Virus record (IMG/VR): IMGVR_UViG_3300029549_000021
Reading direction: 5' to 3' (one strand)
DNA: 35,344 nt
From: a virus
In this document: one piece after another, positions 4,507-33,844 of the stretch
Numbering within the stretch: position 1 is the first letter of the stretch
How the letters are laid out: each line of letters begins with the position of its first letter
Notes under the pieces: model-generated
What the model was told of the DNA's origin: nothing
The model's database searches: none
Seen by the model: the letters and a program-made list of their open reading frames with translations, nothing else
Translations under genes and position numbers: made by a program

Positions 4507-7500
4507 TACACACCCCTCGCTTTCCGTTCCACTGTCACGCCGATGCGTGCATCTACGTTGGTCGCCATGCGGGTCGACAGCACGCCCACCAGTTCACCGG
4601 AGTCCATGACCACCTGGCCCTTGCCGATGTCGGGCAGATGCTCGTCCAGCATCCCTTCAATGCGTTCCAGAATGCTGGTCTGCCGGTCAACAATGGACTG
4701 CTGGCCGGTAACGCGGTACTGCAGGGCTGCACGGGTGGAGAAGGTACCCAGACTGTCATACACGCCGGTCTTGTCAAAGGGGCTCTGGTAGTGGCTGACG
4801 GCGGTGTCATTCTTCTTATTGAAAGCACTGAACAGGGCAAAACCAATGCCCACTGCACCCACGGCAAGGCCGAGGATCGCGGCAAGCACGGGGTTCGAGA
4901 GGATCATGCCGCCCACCTGCGTGAGGATGCCGCCCAGACTGGTGGCGATGCCGCCAAGGCCGCCCATGCTGGAAGCCAGACCTGCAATGCTGCTGCCGAC
5001 CTGCGTCGTCACGCCGCCCATGGCTGTGCCGATGCTGCCCAGCACATCCACGATCACCGACCCGTTTTTACGCACGTCACCGGCAATGCCTGCAAAGCCG
5101 GAACCACTGCCACCCGCGCCCAGCAGCTGCTTTCCGGCATCCCAGATGGAGCCAGAAATGTCGCTGACGATCTGGGACAGGACTCCGTTGATCTGCTGGA
5201 TGATGGGCTTGCCGAAATCGTCGATGGCCTGCTTGGCGGCAGGCGCAAGACCGTTGTACAGGGTGGAAATGACCCATTCGCCGACGCTGAGCCAGTCCTG
5301 ACTCTTCACGGCTTTGTACAACGTGCCGAAGGTGCCCAGCACACCGTTATTGGCCTCTTCCTGCCAGCCCTTCACAAGGCCGGAAAAGCTGTTTGCACTG
5401 GCCTTCTTGAGCTCCTTCGAGGTCTGCTCGGAGCCGTCTGCGGCAATGGTGGTGACCTTTTCAGCCGTCATCAGAGCGCCATTGACGATCTCGTTAAAGG
5501 TTTCGGTAATGACCTGCTTGTGCTGTTCGGTGCCGTCGGCCAGTGTTTCCGTGACCGTTTTGGTGGAGGTCTGGATGCCATTCACAACGGCATCGGTGGT
5601 GGAAGTGACTGTAGACACCACATCCCTTACCGTTTCCATGGTCTGCTGCACGGTCTTTTTGCCGTCGGCGGCAATGCTGGTGACGGTCTTGATATCCTTC
5701 AGCACGCCGTTCACCAGCTGACGGCTGGTCTCGGTGATGGTCTGGGTCTGCTGCTTCTTTCCGTTGGAAAGCTCCTCGTTTACGGTCTGGGTGGTGCGGG
5801 TCACTTTGCCCAGCACCTCGGTCACCGTGTCAGAGTAAGAGTTGACCACCGATGCGGCGGCCTTTGCCGCTGTGCCCGCTGCTTTCCCTGCGGCGGCTGC
5901 CGCATTGCCGGACTTGGTATAGGCCGGGATAGCGATATCCGCCACGGTCTGGGCGCTGTCGGCAAGGTCGGTGTTGGCAGAGGTCCAGTCGACCAGTTCG
6001 TCACGGCTGGCAACATTGGCGATGGTAAAACCGGCAGTGGCTGCGGTAGCGATACCCGCCACTTTACCCTTGCCGGTCAGACCGTTGATGAAGCTTTGGA
6101 TCAGGTTCTTGCCCCACTGCACCGCCTGCGAGGGCAGGCTCTTGATCCAGGCTAAAGCGCTGGAAAAACCGCCCTTGAATGCAGCCAGCATGGAAGAGCC
6201 CATGCTCTTGACGCCGTTGGCCACACCGGTGAGAATGTTCTTGCCGATGTTCAGCCAATTCACTGCAGAAATGACCGAAAGCACCGCCTGCAGGATCTTC
6301 TTCCAGTTGGCCAGCAGGTCAGGTACGGCCTTTACAATGCCCACGCCCAGCTGCACCACCAGCGAGACGCCCTCTGCAAGGAGCTTCGGCATATTGTCGT
6401 TGATGATGCCGCAGATATTGATGATGATATCCGGCACATAGGCGATGAGGTCCGGCAGGCCCGCGATCAGGCCGTTGGCCAGCTGGGTGATCATGTCCAG
6501 ACCGGCGTTCACGAACTCCCCGGCATTTTCCCGCAGGTTTTCCGTAAAGGAAAGTAACTGCGGCAGAGCATTCGCCAGAAAATCCGGGATGCCTTGCGTG
6601 AAGCCCTGCGCCAAAGAGCCGAGAAGCTCGGTGCCGGTCTGCACCACTTCGGGCACAAGGCCGTAAATTACCTGCGGGATGCCCTGCAGCACGTTGCCGA
6701 TCATGGGCAGCAGGTTACCCACAAGGTAGGTCCGGGCCGTGTCCGTCAGTGCCTGCAGGGGTGCCGTCAAGTCTGCGCCGGTGCTCCAATTGCCCAGCAC
6801 GTTCTGGAAGGCCGCACTCATGGAAGCAAAGCTGCCGGTCAGGGTCGTTGCAGCTTCTCTCGCCGTTGTGCCGGTGATGTCCATGTCCTGCTGGATCACA
6901 TGGATGGCGCTGTACATGTCGGCCAGATTGCCCAGATCATAATGGACGCCGGAAATCTTCTCCGCGTCGGTCAGCAGACGCTGCATCTCGGCCTGCGTGC
7001 CGCCGTAGCCCAGCTTGAGGTTGTCCAGCATGGTGTAGTTCTGCTTGGCAAAGCCCTGATAGGCATTCTGGATATCCTGCATATCCGTGCCCATCTTGTT
7101 GGCGTTGTCGGCCATATCCACCATGGCCATGTTGGCAAGCTGGGCGGCGGCATTGGTATCCTTGCTCACGCTGGAAAGCAGGCTTGCCGCAAAGCTGGTG
7201 GTCTGCTCCATGTAGTCGTTGGCGGAAAGACCCACGGTCTTGTAAGCCTGGGCTGCATTGTCAAAAACGGTCTGCTGGGACTGCATCAGGGATGCATATT
7301 CGTCTTTAACGGCATCCACCGATTTGCCCACGGACTGGGCATATTCTTCCATGCTCTTGCCGCCTGCACCGAACAGCGTTTCAATGCCGCCGATGCTCTG
7401 CTGCAGGGCTCCGCCCATGTCGAAGGATTCCTTGATGAGCTTGCCAATGCCTGCCGCCGCCACGACCTTTTTGATGGTACCCACCAGCTGCGTGCCGATG

Positions 7501-11812: not shown

Positions 11813-11889
11813 TGGCACCGTTTGCAGGGCTCGAACCTGCCGCTTCCGGTTTTGGAGACCGGTACTCTTCCAACATGAGCTAAAACGGC
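11813..11889 (-). tRNA. trnW: tRNA-Trp (anticodon CCA), 77 nt with encoded CCA end
   Basis: Folded by hand from the minus strand: GCCGTTT TA GCTC ATGTTGGAA GAGT A CCGGT CTCCAAA ACCGG AAGCG GCAGG TTCGAGC CCTGC AAACGGT G CCA. All four stems pair (G1:U72 and G10:U25 are wobbles). U33, A37, GG in the D-loop, the TTCGA T-loop and discriminator G73 are present. The anticodon arm is identical to that of E. coli tRNA-Trp as I remember it. Confidence 0.9.
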
Positions 11890-30566: not shown

Positions 30567-30593
30567 GTGAATTTGTACCTCCTTACTGTATGT

Positions 30594-30608
30594 TCTACTT
30601 TAAGTAGA
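30594..30608. promoter_or_regulatory. Operator-like palindrome O-distal: TCTACTT t AAGTAGA (perfect 7-bp arms)
   Basis: It overlaps the cro stop codon and shares its motif with three sites in the cro-cI intergenic region. Confidence 0.5.
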
Positions 30609-30833: not shown

Positions 30834-30862
30834 ACTATACTCCACTTTTAGTAGAATGTCAA
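30834..30862 (-). promoter_or_regulatory. Early lytic promoter (PR-like) for cro: TTGACA - 17 nt - TATAGT
   Basis: Reverse complement of 30834..30862 is TTGACA ttctactaaaagtggag TATAGT. Confidence 0.6.
30841..30855. promoter_or_regulatory. Operator-like site O1: TCCACTT t TAGTAGA
   Basis: It lies inside the 17-nt spacer of the cro promoter. Confidence 0.5.
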
Positions 30863-30876
30863 GAACTTAAAGTAGA
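30862..30876. promoter_or_regulatory. Operator-like site O2: AGAACTT a AAGTAGA
   Basis: It abuts or overlaps the -35 of the cro promoter. Confidence 0.5.
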
Positions 30877-30893
30877 AAAATTTCAAAAGAATG

Positions 30894-30922
30894 TTGACAA
30901 CGCTCTACTTTTGGTGTAATCT
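30894..30922 (+). promoter_or_regulatory. Repressor promoter (PRM-like): TTGACA, then TGTAAT (15-nt spacer) or TAATCT (17-nt spacer)
   Basis: ttgaca acgctctacttttgg tgtaatct lies upstream of the AAGGAG SD and the TTG start of cI. Confidence 0.5.
30904..30918. promoter_or_regulatory. Operator-like site O3: TCTACTT t TGGTGTA (degenerate right arm)
   Basis: It lies between the -35 and -10 of the cI promoter. Confidence 0.4.
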
Positions 30923-30944
30923 CTACATATAAGGAGTGATTCAA

Positions 30945-31583
30945 TTGAGCATCGCTGAAAATATAAAAAGAATCCGTGCCGAACACGGTCTGTCACAGGC
31001 AGAACTGGGCAAAATCGCCGGTGTCAGTGACAAGGCGGTGTCTACTTGGGAACTTGGTCTGAAAACTCCGCGCATGGGTGCTGTCGAAAAGATGGCGAAT
31101 TATTTTGGCATTACGAAGAGTGTCATTGTGGATGACGTGCAGCCCGCCCCGGCTGCATCCAGAGAGCCCACCATCCCCCCGGGCTTTGAGCCGATGCCAA
31201 AGATGAAGAAGATCCCGCTGATCGGAGCCATTGCCTGCGGGGAACCCATCACGGCAGAGCAGAACATTGAAAAAATGGTGGACGTGCCGGAGAACATTCG
31301 GTGCGATTTTTCCCTGACCTGCCACGGTGACAGCATGGTGGATGCCGGCATTCACGATAAAGACGTGGTGTATATCCGCATCCAGCCGGAGGTGGAGAAC
31401 GGCGAGATCGCAGCGGTGCGCATTGATGGTGAAGCCACCCTCAAGCGGGTATATTACAACCCCGGCACGCTGACCCTGATGCCCGCAAACCCGGCTTATG
31501 CGCCCATGATCTACACCGGCCCCCAGCTGGAAGAGGTGCACATTGAGGGCAAAGCTGTAGGCTGGACGCACTGGGTGGGGTGA
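30945..31583 (+). CDS. cI-like repressor: XRE HTH fused to an S24 LexA-like autopeptidase domain
   Basis: I prefer the TTG at 30945 (AAGGAG 8 nt upstream); the track's GTG at 30936 overlaps the SD. HTH: GLSQAELGKIAGVSDKAVSTWELG. S24 domain: GAIACGEP (Ala-Gly-type cleavage region), HGDSM (Ser) and ATLKRV (Lys). Confidence 0.9.
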   Translation: MSIAENIKRIRAEHGLSQAELGKIAGVSDKAVSTWELGLKTPRMGAVEKMANYFGITKSVIVDDVQPAPAASREPTIPPGFEPMPKMKKIPLIGAIACGEPITAEQNIEKMVDVPENIRCDFSLTCHGDSMVDAGIHDKDVVYIRIQPEVENGEIAAVRIDGEATLKRVYYNPGTLTLMPANPAYAPMIYTGPQLEEVHIEGKAVGWTHWVG

Positions 31584-31630
31584 AAAGCGATATTTCACTA
31601 AAATTTGCGAAAAATAACCAATAATTGATT

Positions 31631-31642
31631 ATTTTGCAAAAT
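31631..31642. promoter_or_regulatory. Perfect 12-bp palindrome ATTTTGCAAAAT, 3 nt upstream of the -35 of the NYN promoter
   Basis: Read directly. It belongs to the ATTTTGCA/TGCAAAAT motif family (see findings). Confidence 0.5.
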
Positions 31643-31645
31643 GAG

Positions 31646-31674
31646 TTGACAAAATCAACAAAAACGCATATAAT
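31646..31674 (+). promoter_or_regulatory. Consensus sigma70 promoter: TTGACA - 17 nt - TATAAT
   Basis: ttgaca aaatcaacaaaaacgca tataat. Both hexamers are perfect and the spacer is 17 nt, with AT-rich sequence upstream. Confidence 0.75.
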
Positions 31675-31680
31675 GGGGGT

Positions 31681-31792
31681 GCATCTTTACAGGATGCCAT
31701 CAGAAACATGATGTTTCAAAATGCTTAACAGACCCCTGGTAGTAAGCCCCCCGCCGATATGGGGAAGGCTGAATCCTGGGGTCTTATTTTTT
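31681..31792 (+). ncRNA. Candidate ~110-nt structured leader / short terminated RNA upstream of the NYN gene
   Basis: It lies between the consensus promoter and the U-run. Hairpins are GCATC/GATGC (31681..31697) and GAAACAT/ATGTTTC (31703..31717), followed by the long terminator stem. I recognise no Rfam class. Confidence 0.4.
31730..31792 (+). terminator. Intrinsic terminator (long composite stem plus TTATTTTTT), also positioned to end the cI transcript
   Basis: AGACCCCtGG ... CCtGGGGTCT encloses AGCC CCCC gccgatat GGGG aa GGCT, followed by TATTTTTT. The NYN SD starts about 5 nt later. Confidence 0.7.
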
Positions 31793-31813
31793 ACCAAAGG
31801 AAGTGTAACACAA

Positions 31814-32494
31814 ATGGCAAAGACAGCAATTCTGGTTGATGGCGGCTTTTACCGCAAACGTGCAGCCCACTTGTGGGGCAAAAAGACCGCCGAGGAACGT
31901 GCGAAGGAACTGAATGCTTACTGTATGGCTCACCTTCACGATAAGGACGGCAACGAGGAGCGTCAGCTGTACCGCATTTTCTATTACGATTGTGAGCCAG
32001 TAGGCCGCCGCAGCGTGTACCACCCGCTGACAAAGAAGAATGTGGATTTGGACAAATCTGATACTTATACATGGACGCAGACCTTTTTGGAAGAATTGCG
32101 GAAGCGCAGAAAATTTGCACTCCGCCTTGGTACATTGTCCAACCAAATGGCCTACAATCTGCGCCCGGATGTGACCCGCAAGCTTCTTGCTGGCACAAAG
32201 CAGCTGGAAGAGCTGACCGAGGACGATTTCGTTTTTGTGGCTCAGCAAAAGGGCGTGGACATGCGTGTTGGTGTTGATATTGCGTCACTCGCGTATAAGA
32301 AGCAGGTTGATCAGATCATTCTGATTGCCGGTGACAGTGATTTTGTCCCCGCTGCCAAGCTTGCCCGACGGGAGGGCGTGGACTTTATCCTTGACCCGAT
32401 GTGGGCTGATATCAAGCCTGATCTGTTTGAGCATATTGACGGCCTGAAGAGCCAGTGGCGTAAGCGCAGCGAAAAAGCTGAAGCGAAGAAGTAA
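31814..32494 (+). CDS. NYN-domain (LabA/DUF88-like, PIN-fold) ribonuclease
   Basis: Track ORF 31721..32494 trimmed to the ATG at 31814 (AAGGAAG SD), giving 226 aa. MAKTAILVDGGFYRKR..., ...QQKGVDMRVGVDIASLAY...QIILIAGDSDFVPAAKLARREGV... These are the three acidic NYN motifs (D-G-x-N/F, GVD and GDSDF). Confidence 0.75.
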   Translation: MAKTAILVDGGFYRKRAAHLWGKKTAEERAKELNAYCMAHLHDKDGNEERQLYRIFYYDCEPVGRRSVYHPLTKKNVDLDKSDTYTWTQTFLEELRKRRKFALRLGTLSNQMAYNLRPDVTRKLLAGTKQLEELTEDDFVFVAQQKGVDMRVGVDIASLAYKKQVDQIILIAGDSDFVPAAKLARREGVDFILDPMWADIKPDLFEHIDGLKSQWRKRSEKAEAKK

Positions 32495-32502
32495 GGCCAA
32501 AC

Positions 32503-32523
32503 AATGTGCAAATTTTGCACATT
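32503..32523. repeat. Perfect palindrome AATGTGCAAA t TTTGCACATT
   Basis: Arms are 10 bp. It lies 9 nt after the NYN stop and contains ATTTTGCA. Confidence 0.6.
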
Positions 32524-32533
32524 GCTTCCAGCC

Positions 32534-32550
32534 GTTGCAAAATCTGCAAC
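32534..32550. repeat. Inverted repeat GTTGCA aaatc TGCAAC (contains TGCAAAAT)
   Basis: It shares the 13-mer TGCAAAATCTGCA with the ori-like region (18236..18248). Confidence 0.5.
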
Positions 32551-32556
32551 AGCTCA

Positions 32557-32599
32557 ATAAAAACAAAAAACGCCCCCGGTGCTACCAACACCGAGAGCG
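32557..32599 (-). terminator. Intrinsic terminator oriented for the minus strand (antisense to int), possibly weakly bidirectional
   Basis: Minus strand: AAACGCtctCGGTG ttggtag CACCGggggGCGTTTTTTGTTTTTATT. On the plus strand only TTTG follows the stem. Confidence 0.4.
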
Positions 32600-32707
32600 T
32601 TTGCAGAGTGGCTTGCCCCAGAGGGTACAATCCAACATGAACACTTGTATTGTACCACCTCCGGGCAGGCTTGTCAAAGTGTACCCTTGTGTATGGAGGT
32701 GGATTTT

Positions 32708-33844
32708 ATGAAAAAGAGAACGAACACGGCATTTTGGGTAGAAAAGGAAAAACGCTGGTGCATCGCGGTGCAGAAGAACGGCACCCGCAAGCGCTTTTAC
32801 AGCAGCACGCCGGGCCGATCAGGACAACGGGAAGCAAACGCAAAAGCGGATGCATGGCTTGATGATAGCATCCGGGACGGCAAGAAGAAAGTAGCTGCCC
32901 TCTATGCCCAGTGGGTAGAAGAACTGAAGCTCACCTGCGGCACATCCTATGTTGAGCAGTGCAAAAAATACGGAGATTACTATATTCTGCCTGTCTGTGG
33001 GGACATCCGTATTGACGAGCTGACCGAAGGCGATCTGCAAAAGGCCATCAATATGTCTTTCAAAAAGCGATGCCTTAAAAAGGAGCGTCAGCGTAGGTCA
33101 AGCGACAAGCCTTTGAGCCGCAAGACCATTATGACGATCCGCTCAACGGAGATCAGCTTTTTGAAATGGTGCCGCCGGAACAGGTACAGTACGATGTTCC
33201 CTGAGCTGTCTATCCCGAAGAATGCCCGCATGGGGAAGAAAAAGATTTTACAGCCGACCGCTTTGAAAGTTCTGTTTGATGTGGACACCCGCCTTTACTA
33301 TGGCAAGCTGGTCTTTGACGAGTATATCTATGCCTACCGGTTTGCAGTTGCTACAGGTGTACGCCCCGGTGAACTTGTGGGGCTCTGGTATGGTGACGTC
33401 AAAGGGAACACGGTCAATCTGCGCCGCAGCATCAACAGGTTGGATGAGGAAACCACCGGCAAGAACGAAAACGCCATTCGCTCATTTGACATGGGCGAGG
33501 AAGCCCGTGAGGCCTACGAAGCGCAGGTGGCCTTGCTGAAGGCTTCCGGTATCCCGCTGAACTATACCACCCCTTTGTTCCAGATCCCGAACCAGAGAGC
33601 TTTATTCAAGCGCTGGAAGAAGTACCAGCGTGACAATGGCATTGAGCCTCAGGTCACGCTGTATGAGATGCGGCACACTTTCGTCAGCATTGAATCCGGC
33701 GTATTGACCGACAGCCAGCTGAAGATGCTGGTCGGTCACAGCAAGAACATGGACACTGCCGGAGTGTATCGGCACGAGCTTGACGGTCAGAGGGAAGATC
33801 TTGCTGCCGCTACCACCGCGGCATTCAGGAAGGCTCAAGGGTGA
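32708..33844 (+). CDS. int: Tyrosine integrase (phage integrase family with an N-terminal arm-binding domain)
   Basis: Trimmed to the ATG at 32708 (GGAGGTG 7 nt upstream), giving 378 aa. The N-terminus is MKKRTNTAFWVEKEKRWCIAVQKNGTRKRFYSS... The catalytic region is ...ATGVRPGEL...YEMRHTFVS...LVGHSKNMDTAGVYRH (R, H-x-x-R, H, Y). Confidence 0.9.
   Translation: MKKRTNTAFWVEKEKRWCIAVQKNGTRKRFYSSTPGRSGQREANAKADAWLDDSIRDGKKKVAALYAQWVEELKLTCGTSYVEQCKKYGDYYILPVCGDIRIDELTEGDLQKAINMSFKKRCLKKERQRRSSDKPLSRKTIMTIRSTEISFLKWCRRNRYSTMFPELSIPKNARMGKKKILQPTALKVLFDVDTRLYYGKLVFDEYIYAYRFAVATGVRPGELVGLWYGDVKGNTVNLRRSINRLDEETTGKNENAIRSFDMGEEAREAYEAQVALLKASGIPLNYTTPLFQIPNQRALFKRWKKYQRDNGIEPQVTLYEMRHTFVSIESGVLTDSQLKMLVGHSKNMDTAGVYRHELDGQREDLAAATTAAFRKAQG

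What the first reader, a model, noticed from the sequence alone, without database searches (positions are those of the whole stretch)
31631..32494. Consensus promoter, ~110-nt structured RNA, strong terminator, then a NYN-domain nuclease, in the cI-int moron slot: candidate RNA-gated toxin/defence module
**Seen in the sequence**
- Directly after the cI stop lies the only perfect TTGACA-17-TATAAT promoter in the window. A perfect palindrome, ATTTTGCAAAAT, sits 3 nt upstream of its -35.
- The transcript would begin with two small hairpins (31681..31697 and 31703..31717).
- It then forms a long composite GC-rich stem (31730..31784) followed by UAUUUUUU.
- The SD and ATG (31814) of a 226-aa NYN/LabA-like PIN-fold nuclease follow within about 20 nt. 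All three acidic motifs are intact (LVDGGF, GVDMRVGVD, GDSDF).
- By default, therefore, the strongest promoter makes a short structured RNA, and the nuclease is translated only from read-through transcripts.

**Established background**
- Promoter / RNA / terminator / RNase is the layout of type III toxin-antitoxin abortive-infection loci (ToxIN, where a repetitive RNA antitoxin precedes a terminator and the endoribonuclease toxin). It is also the layout of riboswitch or attenuator control.

**Inference**
- This may be an analogous but different module. The RNA has no tandem repeats and I cannot assign it to a known riboswitch class.
- The module sits where Firmicutes prophages keep superinfection-immunity and defence genes.
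- I do not know NYN nucleases as a named single-gene phage-defence system, so the combination could be new.
Basis: partly seen in the sequence, partly recalled or inferred. Interest (0 to 1): 0.72.

Follow-up and report, generated by a model that had tools for sequence, protein, structure and literature searches.

The report
Conserved hairpin RNA guarding phage nuclease
A temperate phage carries a self-contained cassette (strong promoter, conserved structured hairpin RNA that looks like a terminator, then an NYN-type RNase) that recurs in phages of many bacterial phyla, and its RNA is a distant relative of the unexplained Staphylococcus aureus small RNA Teg147.

Summary
The promoter at 31646-31674 is the only perfect sigma-70 consensus in the window. 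The hairpin at 31731-31783 plus its U-run is conserved with extensive covariation: 16 of 16 pairs show compensatory changes across 68 distinct sequences. A hairpin lies directly upstream of every NYN homologue examined that had upstream DNA, in Firmicutes, Burkholderia and Moraxella phages. Enterobacteria and one further clade carry variant hairpins.

The hairpin has a sarcin-ricin-type internal loop (AGUA/GAA). It is a sub-threshold relative of Rfam RF03535, TEG147. In Staphylococcus borealis a threshold-passing TEG147 precedes an intact NYN gene. The copy in S. schweitzeri, of the S. aureus complex, is an orphan relic of the cassette.

The protein is a genuine NYN fold with invariant acidic residues. 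No antiterminator structure exists, so a riboswitch is unlikely.

Best reading (about 0.38): an RNA-nuclease pair that follows type III toxin-antitoxin logic but is not a member of that family, probably acting in phage exclusion in lysogens. Toxicity, binding and defence are untested. The cassette appears undescribed.

The parts
30936..31583 (+). Context: cI-like repressor (HTH + S24 peptidase), directly upstream and on the same strand
   Evidence: Pfam Peptidase_S24 8.6e-27 and HTH_3 2.1e-11
31631..31642 (.). Perfect 12-nt palindrome ATTTTGCAAAAT, 3 nt upstream of the -35; local feature of unknown role
   Evidence: Sequence. Not conserved in related loci. Unlike the cI/cro operator-like repeats.
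31646..31674 (+). Consensus sigma-70 promoter TTGACA-17-TATAAT of the cassette; the TSS is inferred near 31681
   Evidence: 12/12 match. Unique in the window, 0.01 expected. A promoter with at least 10/12 matches lies 21-83 nt upstream of the hairpin in 35 of 39 compared loci.
31681..31717 (+). Two small 5' hairpins of the transcript (31681-31697 and 31698-31713 or 31703-31717); variable in sequence and absent in some relatives
   Evidence: MFE fold; comparison of leaders
31725..31730 (+). Conserved single-stranded UUAACA preceding the hairpin; the following G31731 opens the outer stem
   Evidence: UUAACA, UAAACA or UAAUAA in most of 68 distinct sequences
31731..31783 (+). Conserved three-tier hairpin of the TEG147 class: 9-bp outer stem, sarcin-ricin-type internal loop UAGUAA/UGAAU, GCC/GGC stem, CCCC/GGGG stem with loop GCCGAUAU
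   Evidence: Own covariance model R1 85.6 bits, E 4e-25. Rfam TEG147 37.9 bits against a gathering score of 56.1. 90% of cells paired and 16/16 pairs with compensatory change.
31784..31792 (+). U-rich tail UUAUUUUUU, which makes the hairpin an intrinsic-terminator-like site
   Evidence: At least 6 T in the 9 nt after the stem in 33 of 39 relatives
31796..31803 (+). Shine-Dalgarno AAAGGAAG, 10 nt before the ATG
   Evidence: Sequence. The hairpin-to-start distance has a median of 24 nt across relatives.
31814..32494 (+). NYN-domain (PIN-like) nuclease, 226 aa, with an insertion of about 75 aa in the fold
   Evidence: Pfam NYN 1.4e-9. phrog_5783 1.5e-89, function unknown. AF2 pLDDT 93.3. Foldseek Marf1 NYN 5yaa, prob 1.0. 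Invariant D9, D59, D149, D155 and D176.
32499..32551 (.). Palindromes after the NYN stop (AAACAATGTGCAAA/TTTGCACATTGCTT and TGCAAAATCTGCA) that share TGCAAAAT with the palindrome upstream of the promoter; possibly cassette boundaries
   Evidence: Inverted repeats I14 and I19
32568..32602 (.). GC-rich hairpin between NYN and int. It is a strong terminator on the - strand; on the + strand the tail is poor.
   Evidence: Terminator scan: 16 pairs, TTTGTTTTT tail on the - strand; sequence
32708..33844 (+). Context: tyrosine integrase downstream
   Evidence: Pfam Phage_integrase 9.1e-8 and Phage_int_SAM_3 3.9e-6

Best explanation
The region is a self-contained prophage moron.

**Proposed mechanism**
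- A constitutive, near-consensus promoter drives a short RNA. The only universally conserved part of that RNA is a three-tier hairpin of the TEG147 class, with a sarcin-ricin-type internal loop and a conserved apical loop.
- The hairpin is followed by a U-run, so most transcripts should end there and accumulate as a stable small RNA.
- The minority that read through carry the SD and ORF of an NYN endoribonuclease about 24 nt downstream.
- I propose that the hairpin is the cognate RNA partner of the NYN protein. It limits NYN synthesis by attenuation. As the abundant terminated RNA, it also binds and neutralises the nuclease.
- NYN would become active when RNA supply collapses, for example on transcription shut-off by an infecting phage. 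The lysogen would then exclude or abort the infection.
- This is the logic of type III toxin-antitoxin systems, with a single hairpin in place of repeats and a NYN toxin in place of a ToxN-type one.

**Shown**
- The architecture of the cassette.
- Conservation and covariation of the hairpin.
- Strict linkage of the hairpin to NYN.
- The NYN fold with an intact acidic site.
- Mobility of the cassette as a unit.
- Absence of an antiterminator.

**Inferred**
- Termination efficiency.
- NYN-hairpin binding.
- NYN toxicity.
- A defence role.
For: 1. **The promoter is far stronger than a merely low-expressed gene would need, and it is immediately countered by a terminator-like hairpin.** The match is 12/12 here and at least 10/12 in 35 of 39 compared loci. 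The tail has at least 6 T in 9 nt in 33 of 39 relatives. Making much RNA and little protein is what this design achieves.
2. **The hairpin is under selection as RNA.**
   - On 38 distinct sequences aligned by MAFFT, 89.6% of cells pair and 15 of 16 pairs show double changes. None of 500 shuffles reaches this, and slid controls give 22-65%.
   - On 68 distinct sequences aligned to the model, 90.3% pair, 16 of 16 pairs are compensatory, and the covariation score is 0.572 against 0.249.
   - G-U pairs fit the + strand.
3. **The non-helical parts are conserved too, which implies recognition by a macromolecule rather than bare termination.** These are the internal loop N(A/U/G)GUAN opposite NGAAN and the apical loop A-NN-AUA-N. 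The equivalent loop of TEG147 is scored as a sarcin-ricin motif by JAR3D (PMC13085918).
4. **The only gene always linked to the hairpin is NYN.**
   - An R1 hit lies directly upstream in 58 of 58 loci, 28 of 28 with upstream DNA and 81 of 85 with upstream DNA; these sets overlap.
   - It is also present in Dorea, Streptococcus, Lactococcus, Burkholderia and Moraxella phages.
   - The four loci without an R1 hit, and the Enterobacteria, carry clade-specific variant hairpins in the same place. One stem covaries between E. coli and Proteus.
5. **The cassette moves as a unit.** It sits after cI, near int, or after the terminase.
6. **The RNA survives without the nuclease, but the reverse was not seen.**
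   - S. schweitzeri (S. aureus complex) and S. rostri carry orphan hairpins.
   - S. intermedius has a frameshifted NYN behind an intact hairpin.
   - L060 carries a second hairpin-type RNA on the opposite strand with its own -10 box, a U-run and no ORF.
   - S. aureus Teg147 is expressed as a discrete 60-nt RNA classed as having its own promoter and terminator (PMC5826253). This is indirect experimental support that the hairpin terminates and the RNA accumulates.
7. **No competing structure exists.** The hairpin forms with probability about 1.0 in most full leaders (35 of 39 at P >= 0.95; lowest 0.64), and some leaders are only 21-30 nt long.
8. **The protein is a NYN fold with invariant acidic residues**.
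Against: - No experiment bears on NYN activity, toxicity, RNA binding or phage resistance.
- The RNA has no tandem repeats and the toxin is not ToxN-like, so the known type III precedent does not transfer directly.
- Three of 39 relatives, and the whole P0240 clade, have poor U-tracts. In those, the RNA may stay attached to the mRNA, which fits a cis-acting leader better.
- The hairpin always lies 15-35 nt from the start codon, as expected of a 5'-UTR operator.
- Clade-specific loop types could reflect plain co-inheritance.
- PADLOC gives only weak partial hits (1e-5), so no known defence system supports the role.
- Survival of a 60-nt orphan hairpin may simply reflect its small size.
Confidence: 0.38

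Rival explanations
1. Cis-only autoregulatory leader. The hairpin is the operator through which the NYN RNase controls its own mRNA. NYN binds or cleaves its 5' UTR, or stabilises the terminator as ribosomal protein L4 does on the S10 leader (my recollection). Expression of a dangerous nuclease is thereby kept homeostatic, and the short terminated RNA has no function of its own.
For: - The hairpin always lies 15-35 nt upstream of the start codon.
- The loops are conserved, which suggests protein recognition.
- Linkage to NYN is strict.
- Clades with weak U-tracts keep the hairpin.
- RNases commonly autoregulate through leader hairpins (rnc, rne, Regnase-1; established knowledge).
Against: - A consensus-strength promoter followed by a strong terminator is a wasteful way to obtain low expression.
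- Standalone hairpin RNAs without a NYN ORF exist, with a -10 box or a promoter recorded in the literature and a U-run (L060, S. aureus Teg147).
- 5' stabilising hairpins in many leaders suggest that the short RNA is meant to persist.
Confidence: 0.28
2. NYN-independent terminator and insulator. The hairpin ends cI or upstream transcription and sets a fixed low read-through into NYN. Its special loops are bound by a host factor, or only improve RNA stability or termination. NYN is constitutively expressed at a low level and does some other job, such as RNA processing for the phage.
For: - A hairpin plus U-run is the form of an intrinsic terminator.
- Here it lies just after cI and would also end cI transcripts.
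- Nothing shows that NYN binds it.
Against: - Generic terminators do not keep conserved internal and apical loop sequences across Firmicutes, Burkholderia and Moraxella.
- The element travels with NYN whatever lies upstream, including the terminase in Mcat4.
- The dedicated promoter sits between the upstream gene and the hairpin.
Confidence: 0.18
3. Trans-acting regulatory sRNA. The hairpin RNA (Teg147 class) base-pairs with, or titrates, host or phage targets of its own. NYN merely shares the locus.
For: - Teg147 is listed as a bona fide sRNA in S. aureus, where no NYN gene follows it.
- An orphan copy exists in L060.
Against: - Almost all conserved bases lie inside helices or a structured loop.
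- Apart from the short UUAACA there is no conserved single-stranded seed.
- Linkage to NYN in more than 100 loci would be unexplained.
Confidence: 0.07
4. Riboswitch or ligand-sensing attenuator. The leader binds a small molecule and switches between a terminator and an antiterminator.
For: The order promoter / structured leader / terminator / gene is that of transcriptional riboswitches.
Against: - No Rfam riboswitch matches.
- The conserved element is the terminator hairpin itself.
- The outer stem forms with probability about 1.0 in most full leaders (lowest 0.64).
- Leaders can be as short as 21-30 nt, with no room for an antiterminator.
- A sarcin-ricin loop is typically a protein or RNA docking motif (general knowledge).
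Confidence: 0.03

Closest known systems
[quoted passage not shown]
   Same: - The length is the same, about 60 nt.
- The UUAAC lead-in, three-tier hairpin, AGUA/GAA sarcin-ricin-type internal loop, CCC(C)...AUA.GGG apical part and U-run are all shared.
- Scores fall in a continuum: Staphylococcus 82-86 bits, Streptococcus 52.6, Lactococcus 38.2, this window 37.9.
- In S. borealis a threshold-passing TEG147 precedes a NYN gene 54.6% identical to this one.
   Different: - The window's copy scores below Rfam's gathering score (37.9 against 56.1).
- The Rfam family, as named and described (S. aureus small RNA), carries no function; the only threshold-passing copies found here are staphylococcal.
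- In the S. aureus complex (S. schweitzeri) the copy is an orphan with only a decayed NYN remnant.
- The link to NYN and the spread across phyla are not in the papers found.
Type III toxin-antitoxin / abortive infection systems (ToxIN, CptIN, TenpIN)
   Same: - The gene order is the same: strong promoter, structured non-coding RNA, terminator that sets an RNA-to-protein excess, then an endoribonuclease gene.
- Both are carried on mobile elements.
- RNA-only orphans are tolerated.
   Different: - This module has a single hairpin and no tandem repeats.
- Here the conserved RNA is itself the terminator hairpin.
- The nuclease is a NYN/PIN-like fold, not ToxN/AbiQ-like.
- Processing, inhibition and Abi are untested.
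Lysogen-expressed exclusion genes next to the repressor (lambda rexAB, Salmonella BTP1 bstA, P22 sieB)
   Same: - The position is immediately downstream of cI, on the lysogenic strand, with its own promoter.
- In E. coli phage ev099 and in Proteus phage Brookers the NYN cassette lies immediately downstream of the LexA-family cI-like repressor; in ev099 an N-like antiterminator gene follows it, which by my recollection is the rexAB slot of lambda.
   Different: - There is no sequence or fold relation.
- Those systems have no RNA partner of this kind.
- An exclusion phenotype has not been shown here.
Autoregulatory RNase leaders (E. coli rnc and rne 5' UTR hairpins; Regnase-1 self-mRNA stem-loop) and the L4-S10 leader terminator hairpin
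   Same: A structured hairpin in the nuclease's own leader could be its recognition site. In the S10 case the protein-bound hairpin is also the terminator.
   Different: - The families are unrelated.
- Those leaders are not paired with consensus promoters and do not occur as standalone small RNA genes.

Membership tests
Rfam RF03535 TEG147 | Covariance-model score at or above the curated gathering score (56.1 bits) | tested here: not met
   The window at 31727-31788 scores 37.9 bits, E 3.4e-6 in a 351-nt search, and there is no hit in gathering mode. S. borealis and S. schweitzeri copies score 82.3 and 86.3 bits.
Rfam RF03535 TEG147 | Same consensus secondary structure with an AGUA/GAA (sarcin-ricin-type) internal loop | tested here: met
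   The alignment to the TEG147 consensus covers model positions 1-60, with both stems and the loop. JAR3D assigns this loop of RF03535 to sarcin-ricin (PMC13085918). AGUA/GAA predominates in 68 relatives.
Rfam RF03535 TEG147 | Homologous genomic context (evidence for common descent rather than convergence) | tested here: met
   The threshold-passing TEG147 in S. borealis L087 5435-5495 is followed by a NYN ORF at 5524-6168, 54.6% identical to the window's. Scores fall gradually through Streptococcus and Lactococcus to this window.
Type III toxin-antitoxin (ToxIN-like) | Gene order promoter - RNA - terminator - endoribonuclease toxin | tested here: met
Type III toxin-antitoxin (ToxIN-like) | Antitoxin RNA made of tandem direct repeats | tested here: not met
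   TRF finds nothing in 31580-31830 at score 30. A single hairpin is present in all relatives.
Type III toxin-antitoxin (ToxIN-like) | Toxin of the ToxN/AbiQ, CptN or TenpN family | tested here: not met
   Pfam gives NYN only. The structural best hit is the Marf1 NYN domain. PADLOC gives no ToxN-type hit.
Type III toxin-antitoxin (ToxIN-like) | The toxin is growth-inhibitory, processes the RNA and is inhibited by it | not testable with these tools
   This needs expression, EMSA and cleavage assays.
NYN domain (Pfam PF01936), PIN-like superfamily | HMM score above the curated cut-off | tested here: met
   39.0 bits against 24.2, E 1.4e-9. The HMM aligns only to residues 140-190.
NYN domain (Pfam PF01936), PIN-like superfamily | NYN/PIN-like fold over the whole protein | tested here: met
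   AF2 pLDDT 93.3, pTM 0.88. Foldseek finds Marf1 NYN 5yaa_C at E 1.4e-4, prob 1.0, TM(target) 0.67. BFVD hits are NYN/LabA-like proteins. An insertion of about 75 aa is specific to this subfamily.
NYN domain (Pfam PF01936), PIN-like superfamily | Conserved acidic active-site residues | tested here: met
   D9, D59, D149, D155 and D176 are invariant and D174 is at least 90% conserved in 28 homologues of 37-57% identity. Catalysis itself is not tested.
Transcriptional riboswitch / attenuator | Mutually exclusive terminator and antiterminator structures | tested here: not met
   The probability of the outer stem in the full leader is about 1.0 in most of the 39 relatives (35 of 39 at P >= 0.95; lowest 0.64). 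Some leaders are only 21-30 nt long.
Transcriptional riboswitch / attenuator | Match to a known aptamer class | tested here: not met
   Rfam 15 searches in gathering and E-value modes give nothing.
Intrinsic (Rho-independent) terminator | GC-rich hairpin followed directly by a U-run | tested here: met
   The hairpin folds at -27.3 kcal/mol and has 8 T in the next 9 nt. The family ranges from -16 to -34 kcal/mol, and 33 of 39 have at least 6 T. Efficiency in vivo is not testable here.
Known anti-phage defence systems (PADLOC-DB v2) | Full-length match to a system protein model | tested here: not met
   Only partial hits over residues 143-190: NYN PDLC01154 at 1e-5 and HEC-09 at 4.6e-4.

The most novel reading that the evidence does not exclude
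The cassette may be a new class of RNA-protein toxin-antitoxin / abortive-infection system. A single sarcin-ricin-loop hairpin RNA, made in excess because it is its own terminator, would neutralise a NYN endoribonuclease. It is carried as a one-gene moron by temperate phages of Firmicutes and Proteobacteria, including Stx2a phages of E. coli O121. On this reading S. aureus Teg147 is an orphan antitoxin left behind in a genomic island, and the variant hairpin classes (AGUA/GAA, CAAC/CGAC, enterobacterial) are cognate specificity groups.
Probability: 0.3. Interest if true: 0.85.

Novelty: new variant of a known kind. Interest (0 to 1): 0.7.

Why it matters
- **A testable role for bacterial and phage NYN nucleases.** A 2017 review of the PIN-like superfamily states that they had not been studied functionally (PMC5499597).
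- **An origin for Teg147.** This S. aureus small RNA is experimentally detected but unexplained. The cassette supplies both an origin and a candidate partner protein.
- **A new RNA structural family.** The hairpin shows very clean covariation and has a likely protein-docking loop.
- **A possible extension of type III toxin-antitoxin logic.** If the RNA holds the nuclease in check, that logic would reach a new toxin fold and a non-repetitive RNA. It would also add a one-gene defence candidate found in gut Firmicutes prophages and in Shiga-toxin phages.
- **Experimental tractability.** The cassette is only about 950 bp, so it is easy to test.

Tried and rejected
- **Rfam at curated thresholds.** Only a tRNA was found in the window. 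A weak RAGATH-33 hit (16 bits against 120) was dismissed.
- **Sequence search of the PDB.** Neither the protein nor a 28-sequence profile gave anything significant; 2qip reached only E 0.85. The fold search was needed.
- **PADLOC, NCBIfam and PHROGs.** These gave only partial or function-unknown hits.
- **The palindrome upstream of the promoter as a cI operator.** Rejected. The cI/cro intergenic repeats are of the type TCTACTTTAAGTAGA, and the palindrome is absent from relatives. TTTGCAAA-like words are not enriched in the window: 17 found against 19.9 expected.
- **Antiterminator search.** None was found.
- **Extra copies of the hairpin in the window as possible NYN targets.** None was found. 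The next best hit is the generic terminator at 32562-32605, at 17.5 bits.
- **The hairpin as a mimic of the 5S rRNA loop E arm or the 23S sarcin-ricin loop.** This comes from my memory only and could not be tested, so it is not used.
- **Viral scan with P0252.** It found nothing.
- **Alignment-based viral scan.** It again returned mostly close relatives, at least 58% identical.
- **Literature searches for NYN with prophage defence, superinfection exclusion or abortive infection.** Nothing relevant was found.
- **Longer ORF from ATG 31721 (257 aa).** Rejected. It runs through the hairpin and is not conserved, and the homologues start at MAKTAILVDGGF behind an SD.
Full report
**1. What is in the window**

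Most of the window's long ORFs run on the minus strand, there is a phage-type lysogeny module, and identical copies of the region lie on IMG/VR viral contigs. It therefore appears to be a temperate-phage genome. The lysogeny module is on the plus strand:
- a cI-like HTH/S24 repressor at 30936-31583;
- the finding itself;
- a tyrosine integrase at 32708-33844.

Between the cI stop and the NYN start the sequence reads as follows:
- palindrome ATTTTGCAAAAT at 31631-31642;
- TTGACA-17-TATAAT at 31646-31674;
- two small hairpins within 31681-31717;
- UUAACA at 31725-31730;
- a 53-nt three-tier hairpin at 31731-31783;
- UUAUUUUUU at 31784-31792;
- the SD AAAGGAAG at 31796-31803;
- ATG at 31814.

The promoter matches 12/12. 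It is the only exact consensus promoter in 35 kb, where 0.01 is expected by chance. The 150-nt leader folds as described, with a modest z-score of -2.4.

**2. The protein**

- The 226-aa product passes Pfam's NYN cut-off, although the HMM covers only residues 140-190.
- It matches phrog_5783, a family of unknown function, at 1.5e-89.
- It has only weak partial PADLOC hits.
- The family is large: 221 clusters at 50% identity with E below 1e-30, and more than 8000 close sequences in gut metagenomes, some named Subdoligranulum or Pygmaiobacter.
- In 28 homologues of 37-57% identity, D9, D59, D149, D155 and D176 are invariant and D174 nearly so.
- An AlphaFold2 model is confident, with pLDDT 93.3.
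- The only significant PDB neighbour of that model is the Marf1 NYN domain, with probability 1.0. Its viral neighbours are NYN/LabA-like proteins.

The protein is thus a genuine NYN fold with an intact acidic site and a subfamily-specific insertion of about 75 aa. A review of the PIN-like superfamily notes that bacterial NYN proteins lack functional study (PMC5499597).

**3. The RNA is conserved and covaries**

I fetched 76 IMG/VR loci encoding homologues 57-100% identical. Their upstream regions show the same plan: a strong promoter, usually a 5' hairpin of unrelated sequence, UUAACAG, the long hairpin, a T-run, an SD and a start codon.

The hairpins give these counts:

| Alignment | Distinct sequences | Cells paired | Pairs with compensatory change | Slid-partner controls | Covariation score |
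|---|---|---|---|---|---|
| MAFFT | 38 | 89.6% | 15 of 16 | 22-65% | 0.474 vs 0.245 shuffled |
| Fitted to covariance model R1 | 68 | 90.3% | 16 of 16 | 26-62% | 0.572 vs 0.249 shuffled |

- In the MAFFT alignment none of 500 shuffles reached the observed values.
- The second alignment leans towards the structure because it was fitted to the model. The MAFFT result is independent of that.
- G-U pairs fit transcription of the plus strand.
- The unpaired parts are also conserved. The internal loop is N(A/U/G)GUAN opposite NGAAN, and the apical loop is A-NN-AUA-N closed by C-G pairs.

**4. Linkage to NYN**

The covariance model R1 finds the hairpin directly upstream of NYN in:
- 58 of 58 loci;
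- 28 of the 28 further loci that have upstream DNA;
- 81 of the 85 more diverse loci that have upstream DNA.

These sets overlap in contigs.

The hairpin is also present in Dorea phage DO134P1, Streptococcus phage Javan85, Lactococcus phage Bacchus, Burkholderia phage phiE202 and Moraxella phage Mcat4.

The four loci without an R1 hit (the P0240 clade) carry a promoter and an analogous hairpin, GCCCCUUG-CAAC-[stem-loop]-CGAC-CAAGGGGC, with a weak U-tract.

E. coli phages (ev099 and 48 Stx2a-converting phages) and Proteus phage Brookers carry a third variant. It has a promoter, a different three-tier hairpin and a U-run, and the ATG follows within 11-14 nt of the U-run. Its inner stem covaries between the two genera: GCAGA/UCUGC against GUAGA/UCUAC.

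In the window itself R1 finds no second copy.

**5. The cassette is an autonomous moron**

Its neighbours differ from phage to phage:
- cI->NYN->int here and in Javan85;
- cI->NYN->N in E. coli phage ev099, which by my recollection is the rexAB slot of lambda, and directly after the cI-like repressor in Proteus phage Brookers;
- beside a TA pair and the integrase in the P2-like phiE202;
- after the terminase in Mcat4, next to a C4/isrK immunity-RNA region.

In every case the promoter, hairpin and ORF move together. In E. coli the full module is present in 74 of 5426 complete genomes, for example O121:H19. It is annotated there only as a NYN domain-containing protein.

**6. Relation to TEG147**

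Rfam at permissive thresholds gives one notable hit at 31727-31788: RF03535, TEG147, at 37.9 bits against a gathering score of 56.1.

A pattern scan of GTDB genomes recovered copies in staphylococci and streptococci:
- TEG147 passes Rfam's threshold in S. borealis (82.3 bits) and S. schweitzeri (86.3 bits).
- In S. borealis an intact NYN gene, 54.6% identical to this one, starts about 30 nt after it.
- In S. intermedius the NYN gene is frameshifted.
- In S. schweitzeri (the S. aureus complex, beside an ssl-like gene) only a decayed remnant follows.
- In S. rostri the hairpin is an orphan.

TEG147 scores fall smoothly: Streptococcus 52.6, L024 41.2, Lactococcus 38.2, this window 37.9, Dorea 36.2.

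TEG147 is therefore the staphylococcal branch of the NYN-leader family. The well-known S. aureus copy is most simply read as a relic.

The published data are limited:
- Teg147 is expressed from a genomic island (PMC3053349).
- It is listed among about 50 bona fide sRNAs with their own promoter and terminator, at 386294-386353, a length of 60 nt (PMC5826253).
- Its internal loop is scored as a sarcin-ricin motif by JAR3D (PMC13085918).
- None of the four papers that mention Teg147 links it to NYN.

**7. How it probably works**

These points are shown:
- The promoter is strong.
- The hairpin is stable, at -16 to -34 kcal/mol.
- In 33 of 39 relatives the hairpin is followed by at least 6 T in 9 nt.
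- The hairpin forms with probability about 1.0 in most of the full leaders.
- Some leaders are only 21-30 nt long.
- The start codon follows after a median of 24 nt.

There is therefore no RNA-only switch, and a riboswitch is unlikely. The conserved loops point to recognition by a macromolecule, and NYN is the only constant neighbour.

Pairing a consensus promoter with a terminator makes much short RNA and little nuclease mRNA, which is the design of type III toxin-antitoxin loci. Two further observations fit an RNA that acts in its own right and a nuclease that is not tolerated without it:
- RNA-only relics exist in S. schweitzeri (S. aureus complex) and S. rostri, and L060 carries a second hairpin RNA with its own -10 box and U-run.
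- No NYN gene lacking a hairpin was seen.

I therefore commit, at about 0.38, to an RNA-nuclease pair that works like a type III system and probably serves phage exclusion in lysogens.

It is not a member of that family. It has no tandem repeats and a different toxin fold.

The main rival, at about 0.28, is a purely cis autoregulatory leader. That reading is favoured by the fixed short distance to the start codon and by the clades with weak U-tracts. A NYN-independent terminator (0.18), a trans-acting sRNA (0.07) and a riboswitch (0.03) follow.

**8. Novelty and limits**

- The held literature contains nothing on NYN cassettes in prophage defence or on a NYN-Teg147 link. The library lacks most subscription journals, however.
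- All functional statements are inference.
- The loci sampled are biased towards viral contigs and towards relatives at least about 40% identical.
- Counts from the three sets of loci overlap.

Noticed in passing
window 32558-32677 (- strand): A near-consensus promoter lies on the minus strand: TTGACA-17-TACAAT, 11/12, with TG before the -10, at 32677-32649. About 45 nt later comes the strongest terminator of the region (stem 32602-32568, then TTTTTTGTTTTT). Together they would give an RNA of about 85 nt between NYN and int, divergent from int. R1 gives it a weak 17.5-bit hit.
   Followed up: partly
L060 3999-4064 (- strand): A second hairpin related to the NYN leader (R1 39.2 bits) lies between NYN and int on the opposite strand. 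It has its own TATAAT and U-run and no ORF after it. Its internal loop is CAACG/CAACG instead of AGUA/GAA. It looks like a standalone small RNA gene.
   Followed up: partly
L175-L178 (about 90 nt upstream of the NYN match): A NYN clade (P0240-like, about 41% identical) has a variant leader hairpin, GCCCCUUG-CAAC-[stem-loop]-CGAC-CAAGGGGC, with a weak U-tract. This is a possible second specificity class.
   Followed up: partly
L077 2890-3003; L171 2390-2503; L170 2392-2503: The enterobacterial version of the cassette is found in E. coli lambdoid and Stx2a phages and in Proteus phage Brookers. It has a promoter, a different three-tier hairpin and a U-run, with the ATG 11-14 nt after the U-run, and it lies immediately downstream of the cI-like repressor. 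The full module is in 74 of 5426 complete E. coli genomes.
   Followed up: partly
L088 1265-1400: In S. schweitzeri (S. aureus complex) TEG147 is followed by a decayed NYN start (ATGCAATAGATAAAGTAGCCATTCTAATATATGGAG, compare M..KVAILIYGE). It lies about 2 kb from a superantigen-like (ssl-type) gene. The S. aureus sRNA therefore looks like a relic of the cassette.
   Followed up: yes
L082 133-198; L083 2088-2153 (- strand): Sutterella genomes have a weaker R1-type hairpin (28.8 bits, GAGUAA/CGAAA loop). In L083 the ORF that follows it encodes a 537-aa protein that by eye looks like a TerC/CBS/CorC-type membrane protein; no NYN match was found in either locus. It could be chance, a different use of the motif, or a relic.
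   Followed up: no
L173 3273-3473: In Moraxella phage Mcat4 the NYN cassette is immediately followed by isrK-like RNA, C4 antisense RNA and the a1b1 target (Rfam 61.9, 71.3 and 36.3 bits). This is a P1/P7-type immunity RNA region.
   Followed up: no
window 31631-31642 and 32499-32551: AT-rich palindromes sharing TGCAAAAT/ATTTTGCA flank the cassette on both sides. They are not conserved in relatives and are unlike the cI/cro operators. They may be cassette boundaries or a regulator site.
   Followed up: partly
window 30593-30608, 30841-30877, 30900-30915: Repeated TCTACTTTAAGTAGA-like inverted repeats lie around the divergent cI and cro-like genes. These are likely the immunity operators.
   Followed up: no
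window 11813-11889 (- strand): A tRNA-Trp (anticodon CCA) gene lies inside the phage genome (Rfam 55.7 bits; ARAGORN).
   Followed up: no
window 31721-31813: An in-frame ATG at 31721 extends the NYN ORF to 257 aa through the hairpin. Several database homologues are 236-265 aa long, which may reflect the same over-extension and would hide the RNA.
   Followed up: partly
L082 2208-2427; L084 5814-5886: A HEARO RNA (118.8 bits) and a skipping-rope RNA (56 bits) lie a few kb or less from the weak hairpin hits in Sutterella and Candidatus Allochristensenella. They are probably unrelated.
   Followed up: no
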